Of a DNA stretch of 64,000 nt, positions 34,019-54,612 are shown piece by piece (the first letter of the stretch is position 1; each line of letters starts with the position of its first letter). A program made the translations under genes and the position numbers. The notes under the pieces are model-generated. The model did no database searches, was not told the origin of the DNA, and saw only the letters and a program-made list of their open reading frames with translations. Source of the DNA: Candidatus Krumholzibacteriota bacterium (lineage in GTDB: Bacteria; Krumholzibacteriota; Krumholzibacteriia; JAJRXK01); assembly GCA_963764625.1 (NCBI GenBank), contig CAVXTH010000009.1:448001-512000 (forward strand), in the 5' to 3' direction.

Positions 34019-34265
34019 ACGGATAGTGGATTGTATACGGCGCTTTAGCCGAAAAGCGAGCAACGACCTTCGAAACGGGTGCTCTTTGCGCTGTGTTCTC
34101 GGTGCGATGATCACCATGAGGATTGATCGTCGATCCGCGACTCACCCTACCGCAACTCTGTTCGCCCGACATGCGCCCACCTGAGCGGCTTCCACCTATC
34201 CTTGGGCACACCGTACCCCCGACGCTCGTGCTGTTGCGCATTCGTCGGGAGGCTGAGGGTACTGG
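34019..34265 (-). mobile_element. ori-side stub, copy 3 (247 bp)
   Basis: Homology to the full element ends at ...GAGGGTACTGG. Confidence 0.9.
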
Positions 34266-34483
34266 CTGACCAAGTCGGGCAGGCAGCGAAAGATCGGCAA
34301 GATCGTCAGCGGTGGAGGTTGTGCTCTGGTGGTTCTTGCGGTGAGCGTGGCGGTGCTGACTCTTCTGAGCTGGGTGAGTCTGTAGGCAACCGCGGCGGAG
34401 TTGAAGCGATTCGGATTTCGTCGCATAATGGAATGGTCGCGGCATATTGATTGATCTGCACATTTGCAAGGTTGGTAAAGCTC

Positions 34484-35059
34484 ATGAGATGTGGAATTGC
34501 CTGCGGGCTGTTACTCTCGTTGCTCCTTTTCCTCGCTCCGAGCACGAACGCACAGGATGTCCCGGGAAATGTCTTCTTGGGAGTGCCCTCAATTCTCACT
34601 CACTACGTGCTCGTGTGTCTTCCTCCCGAGGGGGGCGTCTACGCGCTCGCCACTGAACCGCTGGAGCCGGTGAAGTCGGTGCGCTTCCAGGTCACCTGGC
34701 CGGACGGAGTCGATCACGATCAGGGGAGCGTGATCTGGCCGGGCGCGGTCGATGTCTCCGAACCCGGTGACGACATCTGGGACATCGTGTTCGAGGAATG
34801 TCGCGACAAACCGGGCAGCACTCTGTACCTCGTGAACTACGGAGGGGTGGATTATTACGGTCAAAGGGGCTGGATGTGCCCGTATGGTGACGTGGTTCCC
34901 CGACCGGTGTGGACGCTGTGTTCCGGGGAAACCATCGAAGCCTCGCTCTTCGACATGGGCCCTTCCTGGGTGGATGGCTGTTCTCCTTTTGGAAACAACT
35001 TCTGCGAGGTCATCCCCGCCCAGGCGCAGAGCTGGGGCACCCTGAAGTCCAGCTACTGA
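34484..35059 (+). CDS. Secreted hypothetical protein ending SWGTLKSSY
   Basis: Signal peptide, Cys-containing body, conserved-looking C-terminal motif. Confidence 0.7.
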   Translation: MRCGIACGLLLSLLLFLAPSTNAQDVPGNVFLGVPSILTHYVLVCLPPEGGVYALATEPLEPVKSVRFQVTWPDGVDHDQGSVIWPGAVDVSEPGDDIWDIVFEECRDKPGSTLYLVNYGGVDYYGQRGWMCPYGDVVPRPVWTLCSGETIEASLFDMGPSWVDGCSPFGNNFCEVIPAQAQSWGTLKSSY

Positions 35060-35079
35060 GAATGAAGTGGAGAGGATCG

Positions 35080-35418
35080 ATGGATCGCAAGAAGGCCGTT
35101 CGAGACTATTAGGAGTCCGCGCGCCCGGCGGGAGTCTACCGCGTGCAGCACACGCCGAGCGGCCGCACTCTTTTGGGATCCAGTCCCGATGCGCCGGCGA
35201 TGCTCAACCGCATTCGCTTTCAGTTGCAGACGAAGGGGCATCCCAATCGCAAGCTTCAGGCCGACTGGAATGCCGATGGCGCGGATGCCTTCACCTTCGA
35301 AGTCTTGGATCTGCTGCCGCCCACCGAGAACGAAGTGAAGGACCCGGCCGCAGAGTTGGCCGCTCTCGAGGAATTGTGGCAAGACAAACTGCAGATCGCG
35401 GAAGAGCTGCGCTACTAG
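35080..35418 (+). pseudogene. GIY-YIG family small protein with in-frame TAG at 35110
   Basis: MDRKKAVRDY*..AGVYRV..RFQL..HPNRKLQADW; the second copy has AAG at this codon. Confidence 0.7.
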
Positions 35419-35510
35419 TCTCGCCATGAACATTGACTGGCACGAAGAGGCCAGCTTCAGATAGGATTTCATTTCTAAACCACCGGCCACGTATTCCCAC
35501 GAGGGCAAGC

Positions 35511-36239
35511 ATGTCTGAAAGTTCCGTTGCTCGTTGGCCCCAGCACTACGCGCGTCTCTGTGGCTTCTTTTATCTGTACATCATCGTGGCCGGCATCTTC
35601 GCCGAACTCTTCGTTCGCGCGAAGCTCGTCATTCCGACCGACGCCGGCGCGACAGCCCACAACATCCTGAGCCACGAATCGCTGTTCCGGATTGGGTTTT
35701 CCGGCGAGATCCTGCATCTCTCCTTCGACGTCATGGTGGCAGTGATTCTGTACGCGTTGCTTCGCCCTGTCGATCGCAGCATTGCCCTCCTCGCCGCGTT
35801 CATGCGCTTTGCCTGTGATCTCATCTTGGCCGTGGCGAGCATGAGCCACTTCGCGGCATTGAAGCTCTTGCATGGAGGCGCTGCTCTCGAGTCCTTTTCC
35901 TCGGGACAACTGCATTCGCTCGCACTGTGGGTGATGAATCTTCACGGCGACGCCTATGCCATCAGTCTCGTCTTCTTCGGCTTCGCATGTCTCGCCCTGG
36001 GGCACCTTCTCTTTTACTCAGACTTTCTCCCCAAGGCCCTCGGTGTTCTGCTCGCTCTCGCCGGAGTCTGCTACCTCTTCACGAGCTTCGCCCAGTTCCT
36101 GGATCCGGCCTTCGCCCAGCGACTCTTTCCCGTCTTCTTCATTCCGTGCTTTGTGGGCGAGCTCGGCTTCGCGCTGTGGATGCTCGTGAAGGGCGTGAAA
36201 GTTGAAAAGTGGAGAGAGCGGGCGCTCGCGCAGGACTAA
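35511..36239 (+). CDS. DUF4386-like membrane protein
   Basis: ARLCGFFYL, DAGATAHNI, GELGFALWMLVKG; multiple TM segments. Confidence 0.75.
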   Translation: MSESSVARWPQHYARLCGFFYLYIIVAGIFAELFVRAKLVIPTDAGATAHNILSHESLFRIGFSGEILHLSFDVMVAVILYALLRPVDRSIALLAAFMRFACDLILAVASMSHFAALKLLHGGAALESFSSGQLHSLALWVMNLHGDAYAISLVFFGFACLALGHLLFYSDFLPKALGVLLALAGVCYLFTSFAQFLDPAFAQRLFPVFFIPCFVGELGFALWMLVKGVKVEKWRERALAQD

Positions 36240-36391
36240 ACCCCTAACGGGGCGGTTGGCGACAGACCCGTTGTCCGTCCAGGCTATCAACTCTTGACCG
36301 CCCGGGCAGAAGTGGTCCACGCTCAGCTCATCCGTCCCCTCCCCCTACAGGTCTTAGTTTACGCTTCGTGTGCTGCTCAGGAGGCATTGCC

Positions 36392-36976
36392 GTGACCAAA
36401 TTTCGTTGGGTGTTGTTGCTCGCTTTGATTCTCATGGGACTTTGGGCTCGTGAAGCTTCGGCTCAAGGACGACCCGATCCCGCAAAACTCATGGCGGCTC
36501 AGCGAGAGGCGATGAGCCGACTTGCCATCATGGATGGGGTGTGGAGGGGTGCCGCTTCGATCAGCATGGGTCCGGACGGGAAGCACGAAATCACCCAGAC
36601 AGAACGGGTTGGATCGTTCTTGGATGGTTCCGTGAAAGTCGTCGAGGGCCGCGGCTACGAGGCAGACGGCACGGTCAGTTTCAATGCGCTGGGCATCATC
36701 TCCTACGACCCTGAGTCCAAGAGTTACACGATGCATTCCTATGCGCAGGGGAATGTCGGTGACTTCGTATTGACTCCTACGGGCGATGGCTACAGCTGGG
36801 AGATCCCCGCTGGACCCATGAAGATAAAATACACGGCCACCATCAAGGATGGAACTTGGATCGAAACCGGAGACCGCGTATTGCCGGGCAAGGAGCCGGT
36901 GCGGTTCTTGGAGATGAAGCTCGAACGTGTCGGAGATACCGACTGGCCGTCCGCAAACGCAGTGAAGCCCCAGTGA
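36392..36976 (+). CDS. Secreted DUF1579-like beta-barrel protein
   Basis: Signal peptide; GVWRG, QTERVG, FNALGIISYD. Confidence 0.65.
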   Translation: MTKFRWVLLLALILMGLWAREASAQGRPDPAKLMAAQREAMSRLAIMDGVWRGAASISMGPDGKHEITQTERVGSFLDGSVKVVEGRGYEADGTVSFNALGIISYDPESKSYTMHSYAQGNVGDFVLTPTGDGYSWEIPAGPMKIKYTATIKDGTWIETGDRVLPGKEPVRFLEMKLERVGDTDWPSANAVKPQ

Positions 36977-37103
36977 GCGAGTGCGCCCTGCATGCTTCCG
37001 CGGAAGTGGCCGCGGGCCGGGGTCTTGTTCATATTCTGGTACGTAGAATTCCCGCCAGCGCGGGAAACGCAACAGATAACTCGGCCCCGAAAGGAGCTTC
37101 AGT

Positions 37104-37235
37104 ATGAAGCTGAGAAGCAAATTGTGGAGCGCTGCGCTTCTTCTCGTCGCAGTACTCTGGTCGATCGCCGCTTTCGCCAAGAACACTGACCAGAAGATCG
37201 TCGTCAAGGACGTCGGCTTTTCCACTCCCGAGTCG
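37104..37235 (+). pseudogene. 5' fragment of a secreted SMP-30/gluconolactonase-like protein, cut by ori copy 4
   Basis: AGGAG RBS; MKLRSKLWSAALLLVAVLWSIAAFA...VGFSTPES, then the ori. Confidence 0.65.
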
Positions 37236-37670
37236 ACGGATAGTGGATTGTATACGGCGCTTTAGCCGAAAAGCGAGCAACGACCTTCGAAACGGGTGCT
37301 CTTTGCGCTGTGTTCTCGGTGCGATGATCACCATGAGGATTGACCGTCGATCCGTGCCAGGTGTCTGAGAATCCGGTCCACCACCGCTGCTTCGTCGATC
37401 ACCGACACGATCTTCATGGTTCCCCCGCACTGCGGGCAGAGCATGGGGTCCAGCTCGAAGATCCTGCGCAGCAGGCGTGCCCAGCTGCGGCTGCGCGCAG
37501 TGGACGGTGCCCTGGCGATCGTCGCGTCCTGGGGGGTGGCTCTTGCCCCTCGGGCCCGGTGCGAGTACCAGCCGTAGTAACGGACCAGGTGCTGCCGTGG
37601 CGCGGGGATCTAGGCGCACAGACGGCGGATCATCTCCAGAACATCGAGTTCGAGATCACGTTGGCCGGTG
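37236..37670 (-). mobile_element. ori-side stub, copy 4
   Basis: Internal deletion between CGATCCG microhomologies; homology ends at TTGGCCGGTG. Confidence 0.9.
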
Positions 37671-37841
37671 AGGCGCTTGGTCAACTGTTTGAGGATGCCA
37701 TCGTTGCCGAGAAACTCCTCGGGCTTCTTGCCGGCGATGAGCTCATCGAGCAACTTGTCGGTAGGATCTGGCTTGGCCATGGCTCTTCTCCTTTGATAGA
37801 GTATAGTTCAAGGCCAGTTACACAGAAAAGCTTACAGTCTT
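37671..37841 (-). mobile_element. IS256-family left-end fragment
   Basis: Minus strand AGACTGTAAGCTTTTCTGTGTAAC IR-like end; ATG 37780 gives MAKPDPTDKLLDELIAGKKPEEFLGNDGILKQLTKRL. Confidence 0.75.
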
Positions 37842-37872
37842 GATAATGGAAGCTCAAACACGAGGATTGAAA

Positions 37873-38982
37873 ATGAAGCGAAATCACCTCTATTTCATTA
37901 TCACGCTGTTGCTTGTCGCGATGGCGGTCGTCGGCTGCTCTGACAACGGCACCGCCCCGGTGCTCGACAAGGGCCCGGCTATCACACGCGTTTGGATCGA
38001 GGGCGCGCTCAACGTATCCCTCGGTGGCACCACGGCCATGAAGGCCATGGTCATGTACGAGGACGGCACAACCCACGATGTCACCGAAGACGCCGCCTGG
38101 GACACGCTCGACCCCACCGTGGCTACCGCGGACAACGGCGTCGTGACAGCGGTCGACATCGGTGTCACCCAGGTGCGCATCCGCTACCGCGGCGTCACCT
38201 TCTCCGACTTTCTCGGTGTTCCGACGCGTGGGTATCCTCAGGGCTCCATCTCACTCGAGGGATACAGCGGGGTCGACCAGGCACTCCAGCTCAACCCCGG
38301 CGAGACCCGTCAGCTCAAGATCGAGATTCGATACCCCGACGCCACCACGCTCGACATCACCGACCGCGCGGTCTTCGACTCGTCCAACCCCGCCGCCATT
38401 TCCGTCGATCCATTCGGAGTGGCCACCGTCCACGTCGACCAGGGCGCGACCGAGCTCTGGATCGAGTACCGTGGCCAGTACGCGCAGTTCACACTGCAGG
38501 TGGGTGACCCCCTGCCCAAGCAGTACGAAGTCTATGTGGAAGCCGAAAGATTCGCGGCGCCCAATTCGTGCGACAGCGCCACCAACGCTGATGGCGGCGA
38601 CGGCGAATTCTGTTACCAGATCAACGTCGTTACGCCGACCGGCGACCGCCTGCTCGTCGCCGAGACCACCGACTATCCCAGCAAGGACCACGTCATCCAC
38701 GTTGACCAGAACGGATCGCTGACCCTCAACTCCGCGCAGCTCGGCCCGCTCCCACTCAGCGAAATCCAGGCCCTCGAGGTCGAAGTGCGCGTGACCGAGT
38801 GGGACCTGCAGTGGACCGACTTCGGCGACCCCATACACGATTCCGATATGGACGACAGGTCGGACAGCCGCGTCTATCGCGGCTCCGACGGCTTTTCGCC
38901 CGGCGTCCACACCATCAACCTCACCGGATCCGCCGACTGCGAAGTCGAGGTCAGCTTCCGCATCATCGCCGTCCAGCTGTAG
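37873..38982 (+). CDS. Lipoprotein with two bacterial Ig-like (Big_2-type) domains
   Basis: Lipobox VVGC; YxDxTTxDxT...WxxxDPTVA and SSNPA repeats. Confidence 0.75.
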   Translation: MKRNHLYFIITLLLVAMAVVGCSDNGTAPVLDKGPAITRVWIEGALNVSLGGTTAMKAMVMYEDGTTHDVTEDAAWDTLDPTVATADNGVVTAVDIGVTQVRIRYRGVTFSDFLGVPTRGYPQGSISLEGYSGVDQALQLNPGETRQLKIEIRYPDATTLDITDRAVFDSSNPAAISVDPFGVATVHVDQGATELWIEYRGQYAQFTLQVGDPLPKQYEVYVEAERFAAPNSCDSATNADGGDGEFCYQINVVTPTGDRLLVAETTDYPSKDHVIHVDQNGSLTLNSAQLGPLPLSEIQALEVEVRVTEWDLQWTDFGDPIHDSDMDDRSDSRVYRGSDGFSPGVHTINLTGSADCEVEVSFRIIAVQL

Positions 38983-39020
38983 CCCCCACCCGGAAGGGCG
39001 CAGGAACGCAAGGGCCCCGT

Positions 39021-39119
39021 ACGGATAGTGGATTGTATACGGCGCTTTAGCCGACAAGCGAGCAACGACCTTCGAAACGGGTGCTCTTTGCGCTGTGTTC
39101 TCGGTGCGATGATCACCAT
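39021..39119 (-). mobile_element. ori-side stub, copy 5 (about 100 bp)
   Basis: Ori and hairpins only. Confidence 0.9.
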
Positions 39120-39170
39120 ATTGACCTTGGTGCGATGAAGAGTTTGAAGAAGCAGCAACAGATGAAAGGA

Positions 39171-39194
39171 GCCGCGGCCCTCTGGGGCCGCGGC
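39171..39194. terminator. GC-rich hairpin
   Basis: GCCGCGGCCC-TCTG-GGGCCGCGGC. Confidence 0.45.
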
Positions 39195-40037
39195 CTGTCC
39201 CTGCCCCGAGTTCAATAAGCAAGTGCAACACTTCTGGCTTAGCGACTTCCGCGCTAGAATGCGCGGATTATGTCTAAACACTACAAGCACTTGTCCGAAG
39301 AGGAGCGGGATCGTCTGGCGATCCTCAAGGGCCAGGACCTGCCGATGAGAGCGATCGCGGCTCAACTCGGTCGGTCTCCCTCGACGATCTCACGGGAGCT
39401 GCGTCGTAACGCCTCCTCCGGCAGATCAAGCGGCTATCTGCCCCATAAAGCCCAAACCGAAGCCGACCTTCGTTGGAGGCAAAGTCATCGTCGGCTGCGT
39501 CTGAAAGCCCCCTTCCTGAGGTCATATGTCCGAATCGGTCTCAAACGAGGCTGGTCACCCGAGCAGATCGCCGGACGACTTCGATACGAAGGTCACTCGC
39601 TGACCGTCAGTCACGAAGCCATCTATCAATGGATCTACCTCGAGGCTAGGGAGCTGATCCCTCGGCTCGCCAAGTCTCACCGCAAACGACTACCGCGCCG
39701 GTATTGCAAACACTCCCGATTCCGTATCCCCAACAGGGTTTTCATCTCCGAACGCCCCCAGCATGTGCTTACACGGGAATAGCCAGGACACTGGGAGGTC
39801 GACACCGCCAACTCACCTCGCGGGACGGCGGCGCTCGCTGTTGCTGTCGAACGCAAGACTCGGTACATGAGGATCAAGGCCATCTCTCGAAAAACGGCTA
39901 TGGCGTTCCGCAAGTCGCTGGTTGAAAGTCTCGGCAGCTATCCCGACCACATCCGAGCGACAATCACTTACGATAACGGTGCAGAGAACACATGCCATTG
40001 CTGGGTCGATCGCGCCCTGGGCACTCAGGCGTACTAC
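39195..40037 (+). mobile_element. IS30-family element, truncated, with TAG at 39780
   Basis: YKHLS..ER, RSPSTISRELRRN, WSPEQIAG, then GHWEVDT, VERKTRY, TITYDNG; C-terminus missing. Confidence 0.88.
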
Positions 40038-41416: not shown

Positions 41417-41475
41417 GCTGTTGCCTTCTCGAACTGCGGGTTGGGGCTATGGACCCCAACCCACTACTCCTACAG

Positions 41476-41620: not shown

Positions 41621-43139
41621 TGCTTGCCGTCAGACTGATTGAGACAGATCCAAGCTAAAAATAGAGGACACTTCTGAGGTATCCTTAAGAACCCCAAAGG
41701 GAGTGTACCATGTCCGAATCTACGAGTCCCGAGTCGAAAGTCCGTGAGATCCGCCGCAAGACACGCAGACGTTACAGCGCGGAGGAGAAGATTCGTATCG
41801 TCCTGGACGGATTGAAGGGTGAGGACAGTATTGCCGAGCTCTGTCGTCGGGAGGGGATTAGCCCGAATCTCTACTACACCTGGTCCAAGGAGTTTCTGGA
41901 GGCCGGCAAGCGCCGTCTGATGGGCGACACCAAGCGCGAGGCGAGCAGCAGCGAGGTAGAGGATCTTCGTCAGGAGAACAGCGAGCTGAAGCATACGGTC
42001 GCCGATCTGACGCTGCGTGTCCGTGGGCTCAAAAAAAATATCAGTGGCTTAGACGGCGGACGGGGCCGCTGACGATGCGATTCAGTCAGCCGGAAAGGAT
42101 GGAGATCATCCGCCTGGTCGAGGAGTCGGAGCTGGGAGTGAAGCAAACGCTGCAGGAGCTGGATGTTCCTCGGAGTACCTTCTACCGCTGGTATCGGCGC
42201 TACGAGGAGGCAGGCTACGAGGGCCTGGCCTTGAGGCAATCAGCGCGGCAATTCTGGAATCGGATTCCCGATCCTGAGAGGCAGCAGGTTGTGGAAACAG
42301 CGCTGGAGAAGCCCGAGATGAGCCCCCGGGAGCTGGCCTGGCACATCACGGATACCCAGGGGCTGTACATCTCCGAGTCCAGCGTCTACCGCATCCTGAA
42401 GGACTTCGATCTGGTGACCAGTCCGCACTACATCGTGATGCACGCCGCGGATGAGTTTGCGCGGCCGACGCGGGCGATCCACGAGCTGTGGCAGACGGAT
42501 TTCACCTACTTCCGGATCGTCCACTGGGGCTGGTACTACCTGCTGACGATCCTGGACGATTACAGCCGCTACATCATCGCCTGGAAGCTCTATACGGGGA
42601 TGGGGACTGCGGATGTCACCGATCTCCTCGATGAGGCGATCGAGAAGACAGGCGCGGATCACGTGGCGGTGAAACATCGACCCAGGCTGCTTTCGGACAA
42701 TGGACCTTGCTTCGTCTCTCAGGAGCTGAAGGAGTATCTGCAGGCCCATGAGATGAGGCACACCCGTGGCAAGCCCTACCATCCGATGACGCAGGGGAAG
42801 ATCGAGCGTTACCACCGGACGATGAAGAACGTGGTGAAGCTGAAGAACTACTACGCACCGGGGGAGCTGAGCGAAGAGCTCGAGCGCTTCGTCCACTACT
42901 ACAATCACCAGCGCGTCCACGAGTCGCTGAGCAACCTGACCCCGGCTGATGTGTATCTAGGTCGGGGGCGGGAGATCCAGACGGCCCGACAGCGGCTGAA
43001 GACACAGACGCTACGCCGTCGCAAGCGTTACAACAAAGGCCTCAATCCACGGAAGGAGGAGCTGATTCTACCGTCGATCTATCGCGAAAGTGTCCTTTAG
43101 CAATCGGCGCAATTTGTCTCATTCAGTTGACGACGTACA
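41621..43139 (+). mobile_element. IS3-family insertion sequence, apparently intact
   Basis: TG...CA ends with imperfect IRs (TGCTTGCCGTCAGACTGATTGAGACAGAT / ATTTGTCTCATTCAGTTGACGACGTACA); orfA and orfB. Confidence 0.88.
41710..43100 (+). CDS. IS3 transposase OrfAB, probable programmed -1 frameshift
   Basis: orfA 41710-42072 HTH; A8 run at 42031-42038 with the -1 frame open into orfB 42075-43100 (WQTD, SDNG, KIER DDE). Confidence 0.85.
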
Positions 43140-43398
43140 GGGCTTTATGGGGCAGATAGCCGCTTGATCTGCCGGAGGAGGCGTTACGACGCAGCTCCCG
43201 TGAGATCGTCGAGGGAGACCGACCGAGTTGAGCCGCGATCGCTCTCATCGGCAGGTCCTGGCCCTTGAGGATCGCCAGACGATCCCGCTCCTCTTCGGAC
43301 AAGTGCTTGTAGTGTTTAGACATAATCCGCGCATTCTAGCGCGGAAGTCGCTAAGCCAGAAGTGTTGCACTTGCTTATTGAACTCGGGGTAGGGACAG
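43140..43398 (-). mobile_element. Second IS30 left end, inverted, truncated by IS3
   Basis: Reverse complement of about 39195-39453. Confidence 0.88.
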
Positions 43399-43772: not shown

Positions 43773-44375
43773 GTGAAGTACTTACCTTTTGTAATGCTGA
43801 TTGTCCTATCAATCGCATGTGCAAGTGCAACAGTCGCTACAGCACAATGTGAATGGTGCACTAGCATTGATGAGGAAGCTTGGTGTATCAACAACCCGAC
43901 CGGCTATGTTCTCTGCCAAACTCAAGGCGGCGGCTGTGTTTTCTCGGGCGGTACCTGTCCTTCTGGGGGTGGAAGTGGTTGCTTCCTGGAGGGGACCATG
44001 ATTTTGACTCCAAGCGGCGAAAGGCCCATCGAGTCGATCAAGACCGGTGAGTTCGTCGTCGGGAGATGTGGTGACGGCGGCACATGCGCCGAGAAGGTCA
44101 AGGCCACGATGAAGTTTCTTGCCAATGGATACTTAAGAATTAACGATGTTATTGAAGTGACTCCGACACATCCCTTCTGGGTCGGCGGCAAATGGATTCA
44201 GGCGGGCGAGCTGAAGCCTGGTGATGAACTGGAGAGTGATCAAGGGGAGAGAATGAAGGTCGCATCAATCGAATGGATCAACAAGGGTGTGCGTGTGTTG
44301 AATTTGGACGTGGGGATGAGTTCAACGTTTTATGCGAACGACATTCTTGTGCACAACAAGGAAATCATAAAGTAG
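43773..44375 (+). CDS. Secreted Cys-rich peptide fused to a Hint (bacterial intein-like) domain
   Basis: Signal peptide; 45-aa segment with 6 Cys; CFLEGT, TPTH and LVHN Hint blocks; KEIIK tail. Confidence 0.85.
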   Translation: MKYLPFVMLIVLSIACASATVATAQCEWCTSIDEEAWCINNPTGYVLCQTQGGGCVFSGGTCPSGGGSGCFLEGTMILTPSGERPIESIKTGEFVVGRCGDGGTCAEKVKATMKFLANGYLRINDVIEVTPTHPFWVGGKWIQAGELKPGDELESDQGERMKVASIEWINKGVRVLNLDVGMSSTFYANDILVHNKEIIK

Positions 44376-44485
44376 GTTCAGAAGCGGTATCTGTTGCATC
44401 CCAGTGCCACGTAGCTGGGGTGCAACACATAACTTTGATTTGCGAGCGCCATCGGACTCTTAGAGGGCGACCTTAGGGGGCACAA

Positions 44486-45547: not shown

Positions 45548-45933
45548 GCGGGGTATGCATGGAGAAGTGGCGGCGCAAACGAGCGGACCGCTAGCCCCTG
45601 ACATGCGCCCGGTGGTGAAGCGCCAGACTTACCAGAATGAAGGCTTGGTGAGTATGAGGTCCAGGGAGGATTGATTGGAAGGTTGTCGTGAGCATGGCCT
45701 GTCCAACAGAGACTGTCTGTAATCGCCGGTCCAATACTGCGGCGGGCGCCGGTCGAAAACCGCGGCATCGTGACCTTGAGATATGCACTCGGAGCGCGCC
45801 AAATTTGTCGGGTCTACAGGTTTCGCGTAACTGGTGCTGTGGCACCGACATCACTTTTTGCGTGGTTAATATTCCGTTACAGTGTAACCGGTCGCTCTAG
45901 GGAGTCTTGCGTTCTCGGTTTTGTCGCGGATTC

Positions 45934-47502
45934 CTATCTCTCATCTGCGATGGAGCGCATGGGATCGTCAGCGAAGTTCTCTTTCCACAGCCTCGGGGTC
46001 AGCTGATGGACCTTGTTGGCGGGGTGCGTTGCGATCCGCTGCAGCACATCGACCAGGTAGACGTAGGGATCGATCTCGTGCATGCGACAGGTTCGTAGTA
46101 AACTCTGGACCACGGCCACCTGCTGCGCTCCCATCTCCGTCCAACAAAAGAGCCAGTTTTTTCTTCCCAACGCAATCGGCCTGATCTCACGCTCGAGATG
46201 ATTCGTGTCCAAAGGCACGTCGGGATTCTCGAGAAATACCCTCAAGGCCTTCTCTCGATCCAGCGTGTAATGTGCCGCTTTGGTAAATAGGCTGCTGGGT
46301 AAGAGCAAGTGATCGTGAAAGGCCTCGGCAAGCCACGCAAAGAAGCGATCGACAGTCGGTTTACAATGTACCGCCCGGTAAAGCAGCGCCTTCTCTTCGG
46401 ACCGATGCTTCTCCTTTAGAATCGATTCGTGCTTGTACAGCTCGGCAATCCAATCCAGAGCCTTCTTTGCCAAAGCCGGCTCGCTCGCTTCGGCCTGCAC
46501 AAACTTGCGGCGAGTGTGACTCCAACACTGCGCGCGGGTGACACCCTCGCTTGCTTTTGCAAAGCGCTCGTAGGCCTCATAGCCATCGCTCAGGAGCACA
46601 CCCTGGTAGGCTCCCAGTGCCTCGTGAATCACCCGCGTCGCCCGCGTTGCAGCAAAGACGAAGGCGATCTCCTTCTTCTCACCGAAGATCGGCCAAAAGT
46701 AGCCGGTCTTCATCTTCCCCTTGCCCTTACGCCCCGCCTTGATCGGCGTTTCGTCCATGGCCAGCACCTGACTGTCGAGGATCGAGGAGAGCTGGGCCTG
46801 GTAGAGGGGCACCAGGAGCTCGCTGGTGCGCTGCGCCCAATTGGTCAGCGTGGAGCGACTGAGGTGGACCCCGGCCTGCTCCATGCGCTGGTGCTGGCGA
46901 TAAAGGGGTAAGTGATACACAAACTTATCGATGAGTGTACACGCTAAGACGCTCACGTCGGCCACACAGCGTTCGAGCACGGTAGGAGGGAAGTCGGGCG
47001 CAAGGAAGGCCCCATTGTCCTTGCGTTTGATCACGGGTCTGCGGTAGCGCACGATCTCGTAGGTAGCGGGCTTCTGGAGAAGACGGCTCGTGGTCTTGTG
47101 GCCGACAATATCATAGCTACCAGGATCGAGGGCCTCAGCCTCGGGGCACGCGAGAGTTTCCTCCCGCACCGGCAGTGAAGGGTCAAATCGAAGTTTGGTG
47201 CTGTCACTGGGCCCAGAAAACCGTTTGCGCCGGGCATGGCCTTCGACTTTGGTCTCCTCCACGGGTGTGGCCTCTATGGCCTGAAGGCTTTCTCCCAGGG
47301 ACAGCTGGCGGGATTCATCGAGGGTCAGGCGGCGCTCGGACTTCTCCCCGAAGAGCTGGCGTTTGAACCAATCGAGTTGGTGCTGCAGCTCGTCGATGCG
47401 CTCAGTAAGTTGTTCGTTGGTTTTCTCGATCGCAGTCTTGGCCTCGAGCAGCGCGGCAATCTCTTCGCGGTTCATCGTGTCTGCGCGCTCTAAAGAAGTC
47501 AT
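45934..47502 (-). CDS. tnpC: IS66 transposase TnpC
   Basis: FGEKSER, HLPLYRQ, MDET, CWSHTRRKF, TNHLEREIR, GRKNWLF. Confidence 0.92.
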   Translation of the reverse strand: MTSLERADTMNREEIAALLEAKTAIEKTNEQLTERIDELQHQLDWFKRQLFGEKSERRLTLDESRQLSLGESLQAIEATPVEETKVEGHARRKRFSGPSDSTKLRFDPSLPVREETLACPEAEALDPGSYDIVGHKTTSRLLQKPATYEIVRYRRPVIKRKDNGAFLAPDFPPTVLERCVADVSVLACTLIDKFVYHLPLYRQHQRMEQAGVHLSRSTLTNWAQRTSELLVPLYQAQLSSILDSQVLAMDETPIKAGRKGKGKMKTGYFWPIFGEKKEIAFVFAATRATRVIHEALGAYQGVLLSDGYEAYERFAKASEGVTRAQCWSHTRRKFVQAEASEPALAKKALDWIAELYKHESILKEKHRSEEKALLYRAVHCKPTVDRFFAWLAEAFHDHLLLPSSLFTKAAHYTLDREKALRVFLENPDVPLDTNHLEREIRPIALGRKNWLFCWTEMGAQQVAVVQSLLRTCRMHEIDPYVYLVDVLQRIATHPANKVHQLTPRLWKENFADDPMRSIADER

Positions 47503-47511
47503 GCATTCTTT

Positions 47512-47865
47512 CTAGCGCATTTGTGATCTTCTTCCAAGTGGAATCCCATCCAAGAGCAAACGGAACGCCTTCTCGCTCAGCTCCTGTTTCGCCGAGGAAT
47601 CCGGCAGGACAAAGCGGCCGCGTTCGAGGCGTTTCGCAAAGAGACAAAAGCCAGTGCGATCCCAGTACACCAGCTTCAGATAATTGCGGCGGCGGTTGAA
47701 GAAGACGAAGAGCGTCCCCGTGAGCGGGTCTTCTGCGAGCACACTTGTAACCACTCCCAAAAGCCCATCGAACTGTTTGCGCATGTCGACCGGCTCGCGG
47801 TAGGCGAGGATACGAGGGACAGTGGACGAAAACAGCACGCCTAGCTCCGCAGCCGGAGAACGCAT
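47512..47865 (-). CDS. tnpB: IS66 accessory protein TnpB
   Basis: PVDMRKQFDGL, WDRTGF..KRLERGRF. Confidence 0.9.
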   Translation of the reverse strand: MRSPAAELGVLFSSTVPRILAYREPVDMRKQFDGLLGVVTSVLAEDPLTGTLFVFFNRRRNYLKLVYWDRTGFCLFAKRLERGRFVLPDSSAKQELSEKAFRLLLDGIPLGRRSQMR

Positions 47866-48152
47866 CCGCCGGGCAGCTCGAGCTCGACGGTCCAGGGGGC
47901 AAGCTCTTCCCTTTGCGGAGTGATCTCCACGAAGGACTCCTGCGCAGTCTGCGAATTCGTCTCGGCCAAAGTAACCTCAGAACGGCGTTGCGAACTCCTC
48001 AACTTCCGATGCCAGCGCGCGAAGCTGGCCGCATGGATGTGCTCTCGTTCGCAGAACTTCTCACGGCTCAATCTGCTCTTATCGAAGCTATCGAAGATCT
48101 CCGACCACTCCGCGGCGCTGCGGTGAACCTTACCATCGGCGGTGACTCGCAT
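47841..48152 (-). CDS. tnpA: IS66 accessory protein TnpA
   Basis: W..S.LS..FC.RE HTH and FVE...VELELPGG. Confidence 0.8.
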   Translation of the reverse strand: MRVTADGKVHRSAAEWSEIFDSFDKSRLSREKFCEREHIHAASFARWHRKLRSSQRRSEVTLAETNSQTAQESFVEITPQREELAPWTVELELPGGCVLRLRS

Positions 48153-48254
48153 GAAATCCTCCTCGTTGGAACTCCAGGACCAATCACCGATCCTGGCTAC
48201 GAAAAGGATGTAGCAAATCATGAGCAGTATGGGAATACTCCCCAGAGTGACCGG

Positions 48255-49333
48255 TTACTTTGCGGCTGCCCACCTGCGTAGCACTCTTCGCTCCATATTC
48301 GCGTACTTCTCAGCTGAACGTACATAGGCAAAAGTTGACATATCCTCATCCTCTGTTGATGTCGTGAATGAATCAACTAGCACATCTTTGGCTGTAGGCC
48401 AAAATGCACTCCAGTGTCCATCAAAGTTTGGAGTACTCGTGACCACATGGAGGATGGAGCTCGGTTCAATTTCCTTGCGTGCATATACGCCAGCCAGCGC
48501 GAGCGCATGGAATCGAAGTCGTCGCAAGAAGCGAAGCTCTGGAGTCTCCTTCGCAGTTCTCTTGCAGTCATCACTGATCCGAAGGTAAAAAGCAAGGGCG
48601 AGGAGGAGTTCACCAAAAGTGTCTTCCGACCAGAGGTTTTCTATTTTTCCATCAACACCAAAAGCACGCTCATATGCTCCACCAGATTCTGCATGTGTCC
48701 AGAGTGATTTGGGAGCGGAATGAATGAGTGTCGGTTCCTCCAAGAACGCATAACGAATCTTGGCCATCTCTTCCAATTTGATGCCTGTGCCAGTGCCGCG
48801 TCTCCCAACAGCACGCTTGCGCACATACTTAATTTTCGGCAGAGGACCGCGGGCCTTGCGATCCTTAAATTGTTTCTCTAGGAACAACTGAATCGGGTCA
48901 TTTGACCTGAAATCCGATACCTTGATTTGATTCTGAGAGTTGTTGAACTGTATGATCTGACGATTGAATCCCTTTTCCGTCTTGTAGTCTTCGCTTTGTG
49001 TCAGTCGAAACAGTACTTCCACTTCTTTCAGTGGAGGCTGGTTCGCCAAGCTGGAGACAGTCTGCGCCCCATTGATTATTTGCATGTTCTCCGCGGTCAG
49101 CCTGTTACCGTCGACATCAAATGATGTGCATATTGCGGACACTCCGTTATTGAAGTAGAAGAACTTCTCTGGATCTTCAGATGCGGTCTGGCCTATTGCT
49201 TTGTTTATCCCCCGATTCCCCAGATATCCCCTTATGTTGAATGCGTAGAGGGAGTGTCGATACTGATTAGCCAAGTTGCGTAGAGAGTTGCCTTTAATAC
49301 AAGCAATGAGAGTTCGATAGGGCTCCTCCTTCT
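48255..49333 (-). pseudogene. AIPR-family (abortive infection phage resistance) fragment
   Basis: NIRGYLG, FFYFNNGV, QIINGAQT, NSQN; frame open up to the ori junction; stop codon supplied by the IS66 IR; low GC. Confidence 0.82.
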
Positions 49334-51123
49334 ACGGATAGTGGATTGTATACGGCGCTTTAGCTGAAAAGCGAGCACCGAACTTCAGAACGGGTGCTCT
49401 TTGCGCTGTGTTCTCGGTGCGATGATCACGATGAGGATTGATTGTCGATCCCCGACTCACCCTACCGCAACTCTGTTCGCCCGACATGCGCCCACCTGAG
49501 CGGCTTCCACCTATCCTTGGGCACACCGTACTCCCGACGCTCGTGCCCTTGCGCGTTCGTCGGGAGGCTGAGGGTACTGGTAGGGGTTCATGCTCTTGGC
49601 GGAGCTCGTTGCGCCGTCCCCTCGTGCGGGTCGTTGCCGCCGATCCGTACCAGGTGTCTGAGAATCCGGTCCACCACCGCTGCTTCGTCGATCACCGACA
49701 CGATCTTCATGGTTCCCCCGCACTGCGGGCAGAGCATGGGGTCCAGCTCGAAGATCCTGCGCAGCAGGCGTGCCCAGCTGCGGCTGCGCGCAGTGGACGG
49801 TGCCCTGGCGATCGTCGCGTCCTGGGGGTTGGCTCTTGCCCCTCGGGCCCGGTGCGAGTACCAGCCGTAGTATCTGACCAAATGCTGCCGTGGCGCGGGG
49901 ATCTGGGCGCACAGACGGCGGATCATCTCCAGAACATCGAGTTCGAGATCACGTTGGCCGGTGCTGGGATGGATCGGTGTCCGAACCCGAACCTGCTTGG
50001 CGTCGAGCGGGGTGATCGCGTCGAGCCGGATCGGCGCGCGGGTGATGTATCGCGCGAGATGCTCCTGGCGCTCGGTGTGATCGGGCAGCACCGGCTCGCC
50101 GGCATGGACCCCGAAGCCCGAGTGCTGCCATGACAGGAGCATGGCCTCGGTCTCCTCGCGCAGGCGCTTCGCGCGCCGGAGCTCTTTAAGCACCAGCCGT
50201 CGGAACAGCTCAGTCAGCGTCTTCTGATCCCACCACTCGACGCGCTCAAACCATGGATCGCCGCGGCGCGGTAGGTGGAACGCTCCCTCGGTGATCAGCG
50301 CGTGGACGTGCGGATGGAAGTTCGCGGCGTAGCTGCCGAAGGTCTGGATCGACGCGATTGTGCCCACCTGCGCCCGGGGGTCATCGACCGCCTCGCACAG
50401 CAGGCGCTGGGTCGCCTGGTGCGCGCAGCGCGGAAGGATCGACAACAGTCGGCGCTCCCGCTCGAACAATCCACGGATCACCTTGGGTACCGTGAACACC
50501 ACGTGGCGGTGGGCAACCGGGCTGAGCACCTCCTCGACCAGATGTTCAGCAAAAAGAGCAGCGCGCTTGGCCTGGCAGCTCGGACAGAAGTTGCGGGTCT
50601 GGCAGCTGAACGCCAGCAGGTGCTCGCCGTGACAGTTCGGGCAGCGGATGCGCGCGAAGCCGCCTTCGAGGCGACCGCACTCGAGATACTGGTCAACCAC
50701 GCGTCGCACAACAGCGCGCAAGGGGCCGTACTGGTGCTCGAAGCGCTCGTCGTACTCGCGGAAGAAACGCTCACCGTGGCGGTCGAAGAGTTGGTAGAGC
50801 GCGGTGCGCTCAGGATGGCGGGGCCGGTAGAGCCTGACGAAAGATGCAACCGCGGTACCTGGCAAAATGCCTCCCAGAGAGGGAGGCATTCGCGTGCTTC
50901 GACGCTCCTGCATGGATAGGGGAGGCCAGAGAGCATGGCAACACAACCCTTGTCGAGGTGGCACGGGCTCTTCAGGTGCATGTGATTTCGCGTAGACTTG
51001 GGCCGGCGATCAAGTTTGATGAACTCGCGCCGTTGCTCGTCCGTCGGAAGCCTGGGCGGCATCGTATAGTCGCGCCGTCGCCCCCTTGAAAAACTTCATC
51101 GAAGCCCATTGCACACTCATCTG
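49334..51123 (-). mobile_element. Full-length IS91/ISCR-like rolling-circle element (1790 bp), copy 6
   Basis: Ori end about 250 bp downstream of the transposase stop; far boundary ...CACACTCATCTG defined by shared end with the 60117 copy. Confidence 0.92.
49588..50964 (-). CDS. IS91/ISCR-family HUH transposase
   Basis: YRPRHPE; Zn-binding CG..CPNC..SC..FCPSC; HPHVH (HUH); LARYITR; RYYG; C-terminal DP..CPQCG; start uncertain. Confidence 0.93.
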   Translation of the reverse strand: MPPRQGLCCHALWPPLSMQERRSTRMPPSLGGILPGTAVASFVRLYRPRHPERTALYQLFDRHGERFFREYDERFEHQYGPLRAVVRRVVDQYLECGRLEGGFARIRCPNCHGEHLLAFSCQTRNFCPSCQAKRAALFAEHLVEEVLSPVAHRHVVFTVPKVIRGLFERERRLLSILPRCAHQATQRLLCEAVDDPRAQVGTIASIQTFGSYAANFHPHVHALITEGAFHLPRRGDPWFERVEWWDQKTLTELFRRLVLKELRRAKRLREETEAMLLSWQHSGFGVHAGEPVLPDHTERQEHLARYITRAPIRLDAITPLDAKQVRVRTPIHPSTGQRDLELDVLEMIRRLCAQIPAPRQHLVRYYGWYSHRARGARANPQDATIARAPSTARSRSWARLLRRIFELDPMLCPQCGGTMKIVSVIDEAAVVDRILRHLVRIGGNDPHEGTAQRAPPRA

Positions 51124-51440
51124 AGGTATATGCAGGGGCGATGCACGGAATTGGTGGGACCTGGGCAAGTCGATTCCAGGGCGTGATGGACGAGTTGGAT
51201 GCGAATACTCCCCCATTGTTCATCTACGACCAACTTCGGGCAGCGTTCCCAGAAGTCAAAACCTATGCCCTTTGGAGGTTGGGCTACTTGCCCGATGAGA
51301 GTGCCACACGCCAACTGATAGAGGATGTTCTGCTCGGTGCTGGGAACTCAGTGGTTGGCAGACTTGCGCCCACATATACCTATGAGCAACTGAGTCTGAA
51401 CAGCGCGGATTACACATCGACGAGTATGTGCGCATCTGAG

Positions 51441-52151
51441 CTATCCCTTCCTCTTATAAAACTGTCTGATTTCGGCCTTAAGTTGACCAAGGCTGCGTGA
51501 GTCTGGCTCCGTCACAAGACTACCTAGCGCAGCACTGCCTTGTTTTCCCGAGGCATGGGCTTGAAGAGCAAGAGCTTCATCGTACCCAGTTTGCCTAAGG
51601 ACAACGCACGAAGCTGTGGATGAACACTCGAGGTATCGGATGAACCCCGCCTTGGCCAAGCCACAAATGGGAGAATTGCGGTATTCCTCCGACCAAGTTT
51701 CTTTCGGGAACACCTCAGGTGGATTCCGAACTAAAACCACGATTACCCTGACTCCAAGTGGTAGGCTTGGATCAGGCCTATTAGAGAATGCTGCCGGCTG
51801 AAAGACTGGTCCACTAGGCGTATCGAATACACCTCGATGCGTGAACAGTTTCACACTATCCCCACATGCTCCAGCCAGGACCTCTTCCACTGCAATGGTA
51901 GCTTCGAGATAGTAGTAGTCCGATGGAGGAAAGAAGAGGGCCTGTTTCGTCGAAACAATTGTACCGACTACCGCAGCTCGCATATCGATCAGAGGTGGGA
52001 ATTCTGGTTCTCCCCGGTGCCCATATCGATGGGCAGAAGGATTGATTACTACGGGCTTGCCTCTTGCCTTGGCGCAAGCTGGAATGAGCCAGCAGCTGGC
52101 TATAACCAACACCTCCGCCAGCAGTAGCCTCCAATATCCCTGCGAGATCAT
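51441..52151 (-). CDS. Secreted hypothetical protein
   Basis: GGAGG RBS, ATG at 52151, signal-like N-terminus, VVGTIVS..VEEVLAG; low GC. Confidence 0.55.
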   Translation of the reverse strand: MISQGYWRLLLAEVLVIASCWLIPACAKARGKPVVINPSAHRYGHRGEPEFPPLIDMRAAVVGTIVSTKQALFFPPSDYYYLEATIAVEEVLAGACGDSVKLFTHRGVFDTPSGPVFQPAAFSNRPDPSLPLGVRVIVVLVRNPPEVFPKETWSEEYRNSPICGLAKAGFIRYLECSSTASCVVLRQTGYDEALALQAHASGKQGSAALGSLVTEPDSRSLGQLKAEIRQFYKRKG

Positions 52152-52525
52152 GTTTTTCCTCCAAATTTCTAGGACGGCACCGAGTGCTGCATGGTTGGCG
52201 AATCTCAACTTCCTGTTACATTCGTGCCATATTTCATTGCTGCAACCATCGAAAGCGGCTTCAATACCCAAGCTTAACATGGATTCAGACCGTGTGTGGT
52301 TCCCTGGGATTCCAGGTAGAAAGCAAGAGACACTCGTCTTCGTTGTGGATTCGGGTGATTGAAGCACATTCGAATCTCACCGTATGGGCTTGAGCAATAA
52401 GATCTACAAGGGGATCCCACGTCCCACGCAGCGCCTGCCAAGACCCTCCCTACGGCTGCACCCAATCCTGCCAGAGATGGGCCAAGCAGTGATACTTGAG
52501 GTACTGAGCGACAAGTGTGTGCCGG

Positions 52526-52772
52526 ACGGATAGTGGATTGTATACGGCGCTTTAGCCGAAAAGCGAGCAACGACCTTCGAAACGGGTGCTCTTTGCGCTG
52601 TGTTCTCGGTGCGATGATCACCATGAGGATTGATCGTCGATCCGCGACTCACCCTACCGCAACTCTGTTCGCCCGACATGCGCCCACCTGAGCGGCTTCC
52701 ACCTATCCTTGGGCACACCGTACCCCCGACGCTCGTGCTGTTGCGCATTCGTCGGGAGGCTGAGGGTACTGG
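52526..52772 (-). mobile_element. ori-side stub, copy 7 (same 247-bp stub as copy 3)
   Basis: Same truncation point and same cargo junction as 34019-34265. Confidence 0.9.
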
Positions 52773-52990
52773 CTGACCAAGTCGGGCAGGCAGCGAAAGA
52801 TCGGCAAGATCGTCAGCGGTGGAGGTTGTGCTCTGGTGGTTCTTGCGGTGAGCGTGGCGGTGCTGGCTCTTCTGAGCTGGGTGAGTCTGTAGGGAACCGC
52901 GGCGGAGTTGAAGCGATTCGGATTTCGTCGCATAATGGAATGGTCGCGGCATATTGATTGATCTGTACATTTGCAAGGTTGGTAAAGCTC

Positions 52991-53565
52991 ATGAGATGTG
53001 GAATTGCCTGCGGGCTGTTACTCTCGTTGCTCCTTTTCCTCGCTCCGAGCACGAACGCACAGGATGTCCCGGGAAATGTCTTCTTGGGAGTGCCCTCAAT
53101 TCTCACTCACTACGTGCTCGTGTGTCTTCCTCCCGAGGGGGGCGTCTACGCGCTCGCCACTGAACCGCTGGAGCCGGTGAAGTCGGTGCGCTTCCAGGTC
53201 ACCTGGCCGGACGGAGTCGATCACGATCAGGGGAGCGTGATCTGGCCGGGCGCGGTCGATGTCTCCGAACCCGGTGACGACATCTGGGACATCGTGTTCG
53301 AGGAATGTCGCGACAAACCGGGCAGCACTCTGTACCTCGTGAACTACGGAGGGGTGGATTACCACGGTCAAAGGGGCTGGATGTGCCCGTATGGTGACGT
53401 GGTTCCCGACCGGTGTGGACGCTGTGTTCCGGGGAAACCATCGAAGCCTCGCTCTTCGACATGGGCCCTTCCTGGGTGGATGGCTGTTCTCCTTTTGGAA
53501 ACAACTACTGCGAGGTCATCCCCGCCCAGGCGCAGAGCTGGGGCACCCTGAAGTCCAGCTACTGA
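52991..53565 (+). pseudogene. Second copy of the SWGTLKSSY protein (1-bp deletion)
   Basis: GGTTCCCG versus GGTTCCCCG in copy 1. Confidence 0.7.
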
Positions 53566-53585
53566 GAATGAAGTGGAGAGGATCG

Positions 53586-53923
53586 ATGGATCGCAAGAAG
53601 GCCGTTCGAGACTATAAGGAGTCCGCGCGCCCGGCGGGAGTCTACCGCGTGCAGCACACGCCGAGCGGCCGCACTCTTTTGGGATCCAGTCCCGATGCGC
53701 CGGCGATGCTCAACCGCATTCGCTTTCAGTTGCAGACGAAGGGGCATCCCAATCGCAAGCTTCAGGCCGACTGGAATGCCGATGGCGCGGATGCCTTCAC
53801 CTTCGAAGTCTTGGATCTGCTGCCGCCCACCGAGAACGAAGTGAAGGACCCGGCCGCAGAGTTGGCCGCTCTCGAGGAATTGTGGCAAGACAAACTGCAG
53901 ATCCGGAAGAGCTGCGCTAATAA
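53586..53923 (+). CDS. Second GIY-YIG copy (no internal stop; 3' indel)
   Basis: MDRKKAVRDYKESARPAGVY... Confidence 0.7.
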
Positions 53924-54016
53924 GTCTCGCCATGAACATTGACTGGCACGAAGAGGCCAGCTTCAGATAGGAATTCATTTCTAAACGAACGGCCACGTAT
54001 TCCCACGAGGGCAAGC

Positions 54017-54612
54017 ATGTCTGAAAGTTCCGTTGCTCGTTGGCCCGAGGACTACCGCGTCTCTGTGGCTTCTTTTATCTGAACATCATCGTGGCCGGCA
54101 TCTTCGCCGAACTCTTCGTTCGCGCGAAGCTCGTCATTCCGACCGACGCCGGCGCGACAGCCCACAACATCCTGAGCCACGAATCGATGTTCCGGATTGG
54201 GTTTTCCGGCGAGATCCTGCATCTCTCCTTCGACGTCATGGTGGCAGTGATTCTGTACGCGTTGCTTCGCCCGTCGATCGCAGCATTGCCCTCCTCGCCG
54301 CGTTCATGCGCTTTGCCTGTGATCTCATCTTGGCCGTGGCGAGCATGAGCCATTCGCGGCATTGAAGCTCTTGCATGAGGCGCTGCTCTCGAGTCCTTTT
54401 CCTCTGGACAACTGCATTCGCTCGCACTGTGGGTGATGAATCTTCACGGCGACGCCTATGCCATCAGTCTCGTCTTCTTCGGCTTCGCATGTCTCGCCCT
54501 GGGGCACCTTCTCTTTTACTCAGACTTTCTCCCCAAGGCCCTCGGTGTTCTGCTCGCTCTCGCCGGAGTCTGCTACCTCTTCACGAGCTTCGCCCAGTTC
54601 CTGGATCCGGCC
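54017..54612 (+). pseudogene. Second DUF4386-like copy, frameshifted and cut by ori copy 8
   Basis: Matches 35511-36110 with several indels; ends GGATCCGGCC|ACGGATAG. Confidence 0.8.

What the first reader, a model, noticed from the sequence alone, without database searches (positions are those of the whole stretch)
34019..54612. A duplicated ori+cargo unit defines the mobile module and shows a variable far end
34019-36110 recurs at 52526-54612. Homology starts exactly at the ori, the left flanks are unrelated, and both copies have the same 247-bp stub and the same stub-cargo junction (GTACTGG|CTGACC). The first unit runs on to 37235, whereas the second stops inside the DUF4386-like gene, exactly at the next ori. 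So the moved unit is ori + remnant + ter-side cargo, with no ter sequence and no target duplication, as expected for one-ended rolling-circle transposition.
Basis: partly seen in the sequence, partly recalled or inferred. Interest (0 to 1): 0.8.

Follow-up and report, generated by a model that had tools for sequence, protein, structure and literature searches.

The report
Rolling-circle transposon stub capturing relative's genes
The 247-base starting end of an IS91/ISCR-type jumping gene is fused to DNA 98% identical to a related species' ordinary chromosome, and this unit occurs twice, cut off at two different points, in a chain of twelve such ends at one chromosomal site, which likely records rolling-circle capture of random neighbouring genes and would let that step be tested.

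Summary
Observation confirmed. 34019-36110 recurs at 52526-54612 (98.9%). Each copy is a 247-nt non-coding ori end of an IS91/ISCR-like element plus cargo. A congeneric genome (G003) holds the whole cargo at 98%, uninterrupted and without the element, so all three breakpoints are exact: mid-gene, 0-1 bp microhomology, no tetranucleotide, no target duplication. Copy 2 keeps four donor alleles that copy 1 lost, so it is a real second haplotype; its frameshifts look like sequencing errors, and no contig bridges its junctions. The reading is only partly right: both far ends abut another ori, which plain one-ended transposition into a new target does not predict. All 12 oris of the genome lie co-oriented in one 39-kb array at a site empty in two congeners and filled in a third; 5 of 25 ori junctions are 6-40-nt ori-in-ori restarts. 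Most likely: copying starts at ori, stops at random, the 3' end is joined to an ori, and units land at resident oris (RecA or transposase). Later trimming by the next ori is the main rival. New variant of known ISCR/IS801 behaviour. The scan noted this array before (e1-6549835) and a similar pile-up in another genome (e1-7752552).

The parts
34019..34265 (+). ori end plus non-coding stub (element nt 1-247), copy 1
   Evidence: lies 3' of the transposase gene in the near-full copy
34266..37235 (+). cargo of copy 1: 2970-nt fragment 98% identical to G003:C20:89360-92329
34266..34385 (+). 3' part of a 67-aa gene, cut after codon 28 at the stub junction (1 bp microhomology)
   Evidence: intact in L108 and L109
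34484..35059 (+). hypothetical protein gene, no Pfam hit
35062..35418 (+). hypothetical protein gene, no Pfam hit
35511..36239 (+). DUF4386 membrane protein gene, intact in copy 1
36392..36976 (+). DUF1579 gene (copy 1 only)
37104..37235 (+). first 44 codons of a 303-aa gene, cut by the next ori (0 bp microhomology)
   Evidence: contigs of 3 of 4 runs go on past 37235 into unlike DNA
37236..37670 (+). next ori plus internally deleted remnant (nt 1-118, 304-630)
49334..51123 (+). near-full element; ori at 49334
49588..50889 (-). only intact IS91-family HUH transposase gene in the genome (Y2_Tnp, Zn_Tnp_IS91); start codon inferred
52526..52772 (+). ori plus stub, copy 2, identical to copy 1
52773..54612 (+). 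cargo of copy 2, ends after codon 200 of DUF4386; 4 donor alleles kept, 18 error-like private changes
54613..55892 (+). next ori plus 1280-nt remnant; ori alleles at nt 92-118 differ from 52526 and mostly match metagenome locus L038
27989..28339 (+). ori plus remnant (array member)
31410..31880 (+). 40-nt ori start directly followed by a second ori plus remnant (ori-in-ori)
39021..39119 (+). 99-nt ori stub; same junction in G002
59416..60152 (+). ori plus doubly deleted element; further oris lie just past the window at window-equivalent 64444 and 67230
21891..22415 (+). CBS-domain gene, fixed left flank of the array site

Best explanation
The two copies are ori+stub+cargo units of an IS91/ISCR-like element, likely made by rolling-circle copying that starts at ori base 1, stops at a sequence-independent point and has its 3' end joined to an ori, so that each unit likely enters the array at an ori already there. 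Step 1 (junction shown, route inferred): a 247-nt ori end became fused mid-gene to the chromosome of a G003-like congener, most simply by a prematurely stopped one-ended insertion. Step 2 (structure shown, chemistry inferred): transposase supplied in trans (intact gene at 49588-50889) nicks the ori, copying runs through the stub into the flank and ends 2970 or 1845 nt into it; the free 3' end is ligated bluntly to an ori 5' end, which is the circle-closing reaction. Step 3 (inferred): the product is not opened at that junction into a new target but recombines with a resident ori, by RecA crossover in the shared ori sequence or by transposase strand exchange at the nick, which keeps the cargo|ori junction, gives no target duplication, and explains one site and one orientation. 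The two copies descend from one captured ancestor; copy 2 was not copied from today's copy 1.
For: Donor-like locus contiguous across all three breakpoints, microhomology 1/0/0 bp; cargo 97.8% to G003 against 76-81% for the surrounding orthologous backbone. Same left junction, two far ends, both at ori nt 1. 12 of 12 oris of G000 co-oriented within 39 kb; 12 of 13 in G002 at the same site; site empty in G004 and G001. 5 of 25 distinct ori junctions are ori starts of 6, 14, 28, 38 and 40 nt joined to another ori (about 5e-6 if trimming points were random); the 38-nt one is also in a short-read contig. No missing gene half found in either array (4 of 4). The element next to the HNH gene has four mutually unrelated left neighbours in four sequences. 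L037 and G002 share a 987/987 identical left flank but differ in ori alleles from nt 31 on. Circle-then-recombination is the published model for multicopy ISCR1 units (PMC7707992 passages).
Against: No circle or activity was observed. No contig bridges the junctions of copy 2. Adjacent tandem copies of long units, expected from in-place restarts, are not seen. The left end of the array (22417 to about 26000) and the off-array site in G002:C2 have extra DNA with no ori on its left, which ori+cargo units do not explain. Step 1 needs scattered ori stubs in donors, yet G003 has none in its assembly (93% complete) and G000 none outside the array. Recombination inside element bodies also occurs (same 591/1573 deletion behind two ori types), so some junction pairs may be recombinant. 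For IS801 most genomic fragments were judged rearrangements, not one-ended events (PMC3189936 passages).
Confidence: 0.58

Rival explanations
1. Trimming: the unit landed longer, and the far ends were made later when the next ori inserted into the cargo or deleted leftwards into it, with RecA between repeats removing the other half. The far end then says nothing about where copying stopped.
For: Each far end coincides with an ori, as any ori-made junction would. Recombination between elements is evident. IS801 makes deletions by one-ended events and by recombination (PMC6354349 passages).
Against: Needs two or more events per junction; no split target survives in the 4 tests or around the youngest near-full copy; 5 of 25 junctions fall within 40 nt of an ori start; left neighbours of one element are unrelated rather than nested.
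Confidence: 0.2
2. Copy 2 is the array allele of a co-occurring strain that the assembler placed in tandem with this strain's array; the unit and its second far end are real but not a duplication within one cell.
For: About 1.8% error-like changes in 53404-54405 suggest thin read support, while neighbouring segments match G002 with 0 gaps over 2365 and 2376 bp; no bridging contig; arrays differ between strains.
Against: Both boundaries fall on ori nt 1 and the flanks are unique; the repeats (247 nt, 2.1 kb) are short for a 1.1-Mb-contig assembly; contamination estimate 1%.
Confidence: 0.12
3. Classical one-ended transposition into new targets, with clustering due to local hopping or tolerance of this island.
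For: Exact ori end, ragged far end, no target duplication; one off-array copy exists in G002 and scattered copies in G005.
Against: Far ends abut oris in 2 of 2 copies; no target halves; no tetranucleotide; 12 of 12 oris in 1% of the genome.
Confidence: 0.07
4. One locus assembled twice.
For: Copy 2's private changes are error-like and 5 of its 6 deletions are contradicted by contigs.
Against: Copy 2 has the outgroup allele at 4 sites where copy 1 differs, both alleles occur in contigs, and its two junctions are new and exact.
Confidence: 0.03

Closest known systems
ISCR elements (multicopy ISCR1 units in complex class 1 integrons; ISCR2-tet(X) tandems)
   Same: HUH transposase, ori about 250 nt past its stop (254 here, 244 in an E. 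coli plasmid element), run-through capture of flanking DNA, proposed circle then homologous recombination giving head-to-tail units (PMC7707992, PMC7722449 passages).
   Different: Fixed chromosomal site in an environmental lineage, 11-12 oris, mostly transposase-less stubs of many lengths, unselected-looking fragments of congeners' chromosomes cut mid-gene, ori-in-ori restarts; the only shared homology is the ori/stub itself.
IS801 / IS91 / IS1294 one-ended transposition
   Same: Fixed ori, variable far end, short ori-side fragments (229, 360, 679 nt for IS801), no target duplication, action in trans (PMC3189936, PMC6354349, PMC13181058 passages).
   Different: Those insert and stop at tetranucleotides and land in new targets; here no 4-mer at either end and far ends are joined to oris.
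Integrons (functional analogy only)
   Same: One chromosomal platform collecting variable gene blocks in one orientation, with blocks shared between species.
   Different: No integrase among the array ORFs scanned; blocks are ragged fragments, not single-gene cassettes.
Helitron tandem arrays and gene capture (eukaryotic)
   Same: Rolling-circle element giving tandem arrays and capturing gene fragments (PMC12001565 passages).
   Different: Different element class and host; no helicase; analogy only.

Membership tests
IS91 family / ISCR | HUH transposase with Y2_Tnp and Zn_Tnp_IS91 domains | tested here: met
   PF04986 E 6e-26, PF14319 E 4e-21; HPHVH and YITR motifs, 32-36% to plasmid transposases
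IS91 family / ISCR | oriIS downstream of the transposase gene, exact conserved end | tested here: met
   254 nt past the stop; exact end in 28 listed copies; related ends in G005, G065, G071 and L113
IS91 family / ISCR | no terminal inverted repeats, no target duplication | tested here: met
IS91 family / ISCR | terIS with a subterminal palindrome where copying stops | tested here: inconclusive
   hairpin at 50866-50890 over the likely start codon, but every copy that reaches it runs past it
IS91 / IS801 / IS1294 proper | tetranucleotide target next to ori | tested here: not met
   25 distinct junctions, 25 different 4-mers, flat base counts
IS91 / IS801 / IS1294 proper | one-ended events stop at a target-like tetranucleotide | tested here: not met
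   0 of 19 stub ends; cargo ends GTCG|GTCG and GGCC|TTCG
IS91 proper | orf121 overlapping tnpA | not tested
   no search made
IS91 family / ISCR | rolling-circle activity, ssDNA circles | not testable with these tools
   only assembled contigs were available
ISCR1-type multicopy units | circle rescued by homologous recombination | tested here: inconclusive
   exchange point lies within nt 1-91 for copy 2 and nt 1-30 for L037/G002, which fits RecA or transposase; body recombinants also exist
Integron | tyrosine integrase IntI at the array | tested here: not met
   no integrase family among the ORFs scanned (37, 17, some outside the array; not every ORF was scanned)
Integron | whole-gene cassettes with attC sites | tested here: not met
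   unit boundaries cut genes; attC not modelled
tRNA-targeted genomic island | tRNA/tmRNA at the boundary | tested here: not met
   0 genes in window and 5 flanking loci

The most novel reading that the evidence does not exclude
The transposase uses its own ori as an attachment site: it nicks a resident ori, lets a variable length be recopied, and joins incoming DNA or its own nascent end back to that ori without RecA and without target or stop sequence. The locus is then an integron-like chromosomal collector, built by an HUH transposase, that samples random pieces of related species' chromosomes and trades them between species.
Probability: 0.3. Interest if true: 0.85.

Novelty: new variant of a known kind. 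Interest (0 to 1): 0.55.

Why it matters
ISCR elements are blamed for moving many resistance genes, yet a 2022 paper still notes the lack of experimental demonstration of their rolling-circle mechanism (PMC9376610 passage) and a 2026 paper says they 'may' transpose this way (PMC13393415 passage). This unit gives a natural capture product with its donor-like locus and two far ends at base resolution, next to an intact transposase and a minimal ori. It makes three points testable: whether such elements stop without a sequence signal, whether units land at resident oris, and whether RecA is needed. If the transposase does the landing, it is a new way to build a gene array.

Tried and rejected
Target or stop consensus: none. 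Target duplication: none. Circular permutation of the cargo: rejected, the donor runs on linearly on both sides. Copy 2 as a decayed pseudogene: rejected in favour of sequencing error (0 transitions of 11 against 25 of 39 among shared differences, P about 1e-5; 5 of 6 deletions contradicted, 1 deletion and the insertion not covered). Depth as copy number: not used, contigs at depth 2-8. Uncovered junctions in the runs are no evidence either way. Orientation rule against GC skew: array and G002:C2 site point opposite ways if synteny holds, so no rule. Near-identical donors for other units: none in G001-G004 apart from units shared with G002's array; best native homologues 76-87%. Equally large arrays elsewhere in the class: only pairs or small clusters (G065, G071, G015, G021) and a degraded cluster of 7 remnants, 6 co-oriented, in G005. 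Pattern scans gave many chance hits: 5 of 10 metagenome loci were true oris, and most of the 51 genome loci had no transposase nearby. The two classic ISCR papers (Toleman 2006, Schleinitz 2010) were not held; what I say of them comes from citing papers. No structure prediction was run.
Full report
1. Observation. Self-BLAST of the window gives 34018-36110 against 52525-54612 at 98.9%, with 16 substitutions and 7 one-base gaps. Both copies begin with the same 247 nt, identical to each other, that also begin ten other elements in this contig. The junction GTACTGG|CTGACC is shared; copy 1 runs to 37235 and copy 2 to 54612, each directly followed by another such start.

2. What the repeat is. The near-full copy at 49334-51123 encodes on the minus strand an HUH transposase with Y2_Tnp and Zn_Tnp_IS91 domains, the only intact one in the genome. 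The repeated start lies 254 nt beyond its stop codon; in an IS91-family element of an E. coli plasmid the end lies 244 nt beyond, and the ends form a graded series from ACGGATAGTGGATTGTATAC here through GCGGATAGCGGTTTGTATCC (G005) and GCGGATAGGAGTTTCAACCC (G065) to GCGTATAGGAAGTTCAAACG (L113). It is therefore an oriIS. The 247-nt stub stops 8 nt before the transposase stop, so it is non-coding. The catalytic region reads YITR as in L113; that this single-tyrosine form marks ISCR rather than IS91 proper is recalled, not tested. The only genome-collection records with this ori beside such a transposase are titled Candidatus Krumholzibacteriota, so the host probably belongs to that phylum; those records are not counted as separate evidence.

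3. The donor. The whole 2970-nt cargo is present at 98% in G003, another genome of the genus, in one piece and with no ori. G003's flanking backbone is only 76-81% identical to G000's own orthologous locus on C5, while the cargo is 97.8% identical; G002 has the native locus at 84%. So the cargo came horizontally from a G003-like chromosome. The three breakpoints are exact: after codon 28 of a 67-aa gene (1 bp microhomology with the stub), after codon 200 of the DUF4386 gene (0 bp) and after codon 44 of a 303-aa gene (0 bp). Contigs from 3 of 4 runs also run past 37235 into other DNA, and one holds the cargo start behind non-stub DNA. G003 has no ori or Y2 transposase in its assembly, but it is 93% complete and lacks the array's right flank altogether.

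4. Is copy 2 real? Of 23 differences, G003 sides with copy 2 at 4, with copy 1 at 18, and with neither at 1. The 18 are 7 indels and 11 transversions with no transition, against 25 transitions among 39 differences both copies share against G003 (P about 1e-5). Contigs from four runs of one study, which may include the source sample, contradict 5 of the 6 deletions and support none, but carry copy 2's alleles at 53362-3 (X5) and 53616 (X3) and copy 1's alleles there too (X10). Segments nearby match G002 with no gap over 2365 and 2376 bp. So copy 2 is a real second haplotype, poorly polished, and both copies descend from one captured ancestor. No listed contig bridges 52525|52526 or 54612|54613 (5 rows of the table not shown); one contig does hold the junction at window-equivalent 64444. 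A co-occurring strain merged into the contig remains possible (0.12).

5. Context. All 12 oris of the 3.57-Mb, 96%-complete genome lie on one strand between 27989 and window-equivalent 67230. The array sits between a CBS-domain gene and an aldehyde dehydrogenase gene (the label rocA is recalled) whose stop codons are 4 bp apart in G004 and about 150 bp apart in G001. G002 has its own array there; 12 of its 13 pattern matches are at this site (10 on C9, 2 on a second copy of the site on C8), and 1 is at another locus. G000 and G002 share array pieces at 98.6-100% against 82-83% for the flanks. There is no tRNA at the borders and no integrase among the ORFs scanned. Stub lengths vary from 6 to 1790 nt.

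6. Tests of mechanism. No target signal: 25 distinct left junctions, 25 different 4-mers. No stop signal: 0 of 19 stub ends carry an IS91/IS801/IS1294-type 4-mer. No split targets: the missing halves of four cut genes were not found in either array, using own-genome paralogues as queries, and the G003 flanks match only C5. Ori-in-ori: 5 of 25 junctions are an ori start of 6, 14, 28, 38 or 40 nt joined to a second ori; with segments averaging about 4 kb this has a chance of about 5e-6 under random trimming, and the 38-nt form is in a short-read contig. Swaps at the ori: the element beside the HNH gene has four unrelated left neighbours in G000, two G002 contigs and L038, three of them joined at ori nt 1; L037 and G002 share 987 of 987 flank bases but differ in the ori from nt 31; 52526 keeps the 34019 alleles while 54613 has other, mostly natural alleles at nt 92-118, so the exchange lay within nt 1-91. 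Against a purely transposase-driven account, the same internal deletion is found behind two ori types, which needs recombination in the element body. Against ori+cargo units as the whole story, the array's left end and the G002:C2 site have extra DNA with no ori to its left, and long adjacent tandem copies are absent.

7. Model. Joining a far 3' end to the ori 5' end is the circle-closing step of rolling-circle transposition (IS91 circles have ori and ter juxtaposed; PMC13181058 passages). Transposition into a new target would open that junction; here it is kept. I therefore read each cargo|ori joint as such a junction, made by copying from ori to a random stop, with the unit entering at a resident ori by RecA crossover or transposase strand exchange (0.58). 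The very short restarts are too small to be circles rescued by recombination and suggest that the transposase can rejoin a nascent end to an ori in place; that is the basis of the novel case (0.3).

8. Comparison with what is known. IS801 gives one-ended fragments of 229, 360 and 679 nt and run-through captures, all ending at tetranucleotides, and most of its genomic fragments were judged rearrangements (PMC3189936 passages); it also makes deletions with a fixed ori and a variable border (PMC6354349 passages). Multicopy ISCR1 units are explained by a circle and homologous recombination (PMC7707992 passages); ISCR2-tet(X) composites by transposition and recombination (PMC7722449 passages); an IS91-linked circle and tandem duplications are described in a sphingomonad (PMC5737581 passages). 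I saw passages only, no whole texts and no supplements; Toleman 2006 and Schleinitz 2010 were not held. Searches for an ori array, integron-like head-to-tail IS91 structure or ori-in-ori insertion found no such description (open-licence library only), so absence from print is not established. Related elements in other genera form co-oriented pairs or small clusters, not arrays of this size. The scan noted this array earlier (e1-6549835) and a similar pile-up in another genome (e1-7752552, not checked).

9. Verdict. Real feature; new variant of a known kind. Its value is the base-exact donor, two far ends from one capture, and the lack of any target or stop sequence. Interest 0.55.

Noticed in passing
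window 37671-40035, 41621-43140, 45883-48258; window-equivalent 65181-67330: Array pieces, including an IS66 element and an rve-type IS, are 98.6-100% identical in G002, whose backbone is 82-83% identical: recent exchange between species at the same site.
   Followed up: partly
G002:C9 array, reverse-strand positions 27879-29421 and 69121-70662 of the joined L022-L026 stretch: A second duplicated cargo (97.9%); one copy ends at an ori, the other ends at the same base but is followed by an element lacking its first ~212 nt, as if the ori had been cut out precisely (3 bp microhomology).
   Followed up: partly
L028 / L033; own genome C5:351250-351480: G002's one off-array element sits, with 4.5 kb of extra DNA on its ori side, between copies of a long nested palindromic repeat that occupies the empty site in G000.
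   Followed up: partly
window-equivalent 67230-67291 (L001:5230-5291): A diverged 62-nt ori about 100 nt from the aldehyde dehydrogenase stop codon, shared by G000 and both G002 copies of the site: candidate founder of the array.
   Followed up: partly
window 26040-26074: Decayed ori-like stretch lacking its first ~25 nt, left of the first exact ori.
   Followed up: no
window 50866-50890: Perfect 10-bp hairpin over the likely transposase start codon; ter-like or translational control; no copy ends there.
   Followed up: partly
window 59900-60152 and 50906-51123: Two elements carry 34 and 69 nt of the HNH gene's upstream region on their far side, so they look like run-through daughters of the HNH-adjacent copy with two further far ends.
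   Followed up: partly
window 34266, 36110, 37235: All three breakpoints fall on codon boundaries of the cut genes; with three cases and one 1-bp ambiguity this is probably chance.
   Followed up: no
window 43773-44375 and 48255-49274: A Hint-domain protein (PT-HINT) and an AIPR gene whose 5' end abuts the ori at 49334.
   Followed up: no
L106 (NZ_CP058410.1, Trichlorobacter lovleyi plasmid): Best plasmid match to the transposase (36%); 14 matching places in the record, and two copies within 41 kb each preceded by the same toxin-antitoxin pair and hydrolase gene: a multicopy rolling-circle unit with fixed cargo in a cultured strain.
   Followed up: no
L094-L095 (G005:C28:8719-24001): Seven IS91-type remnants, six co-oriented, with different and decayed oris, in another genus of the family.
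   Followed up: partly
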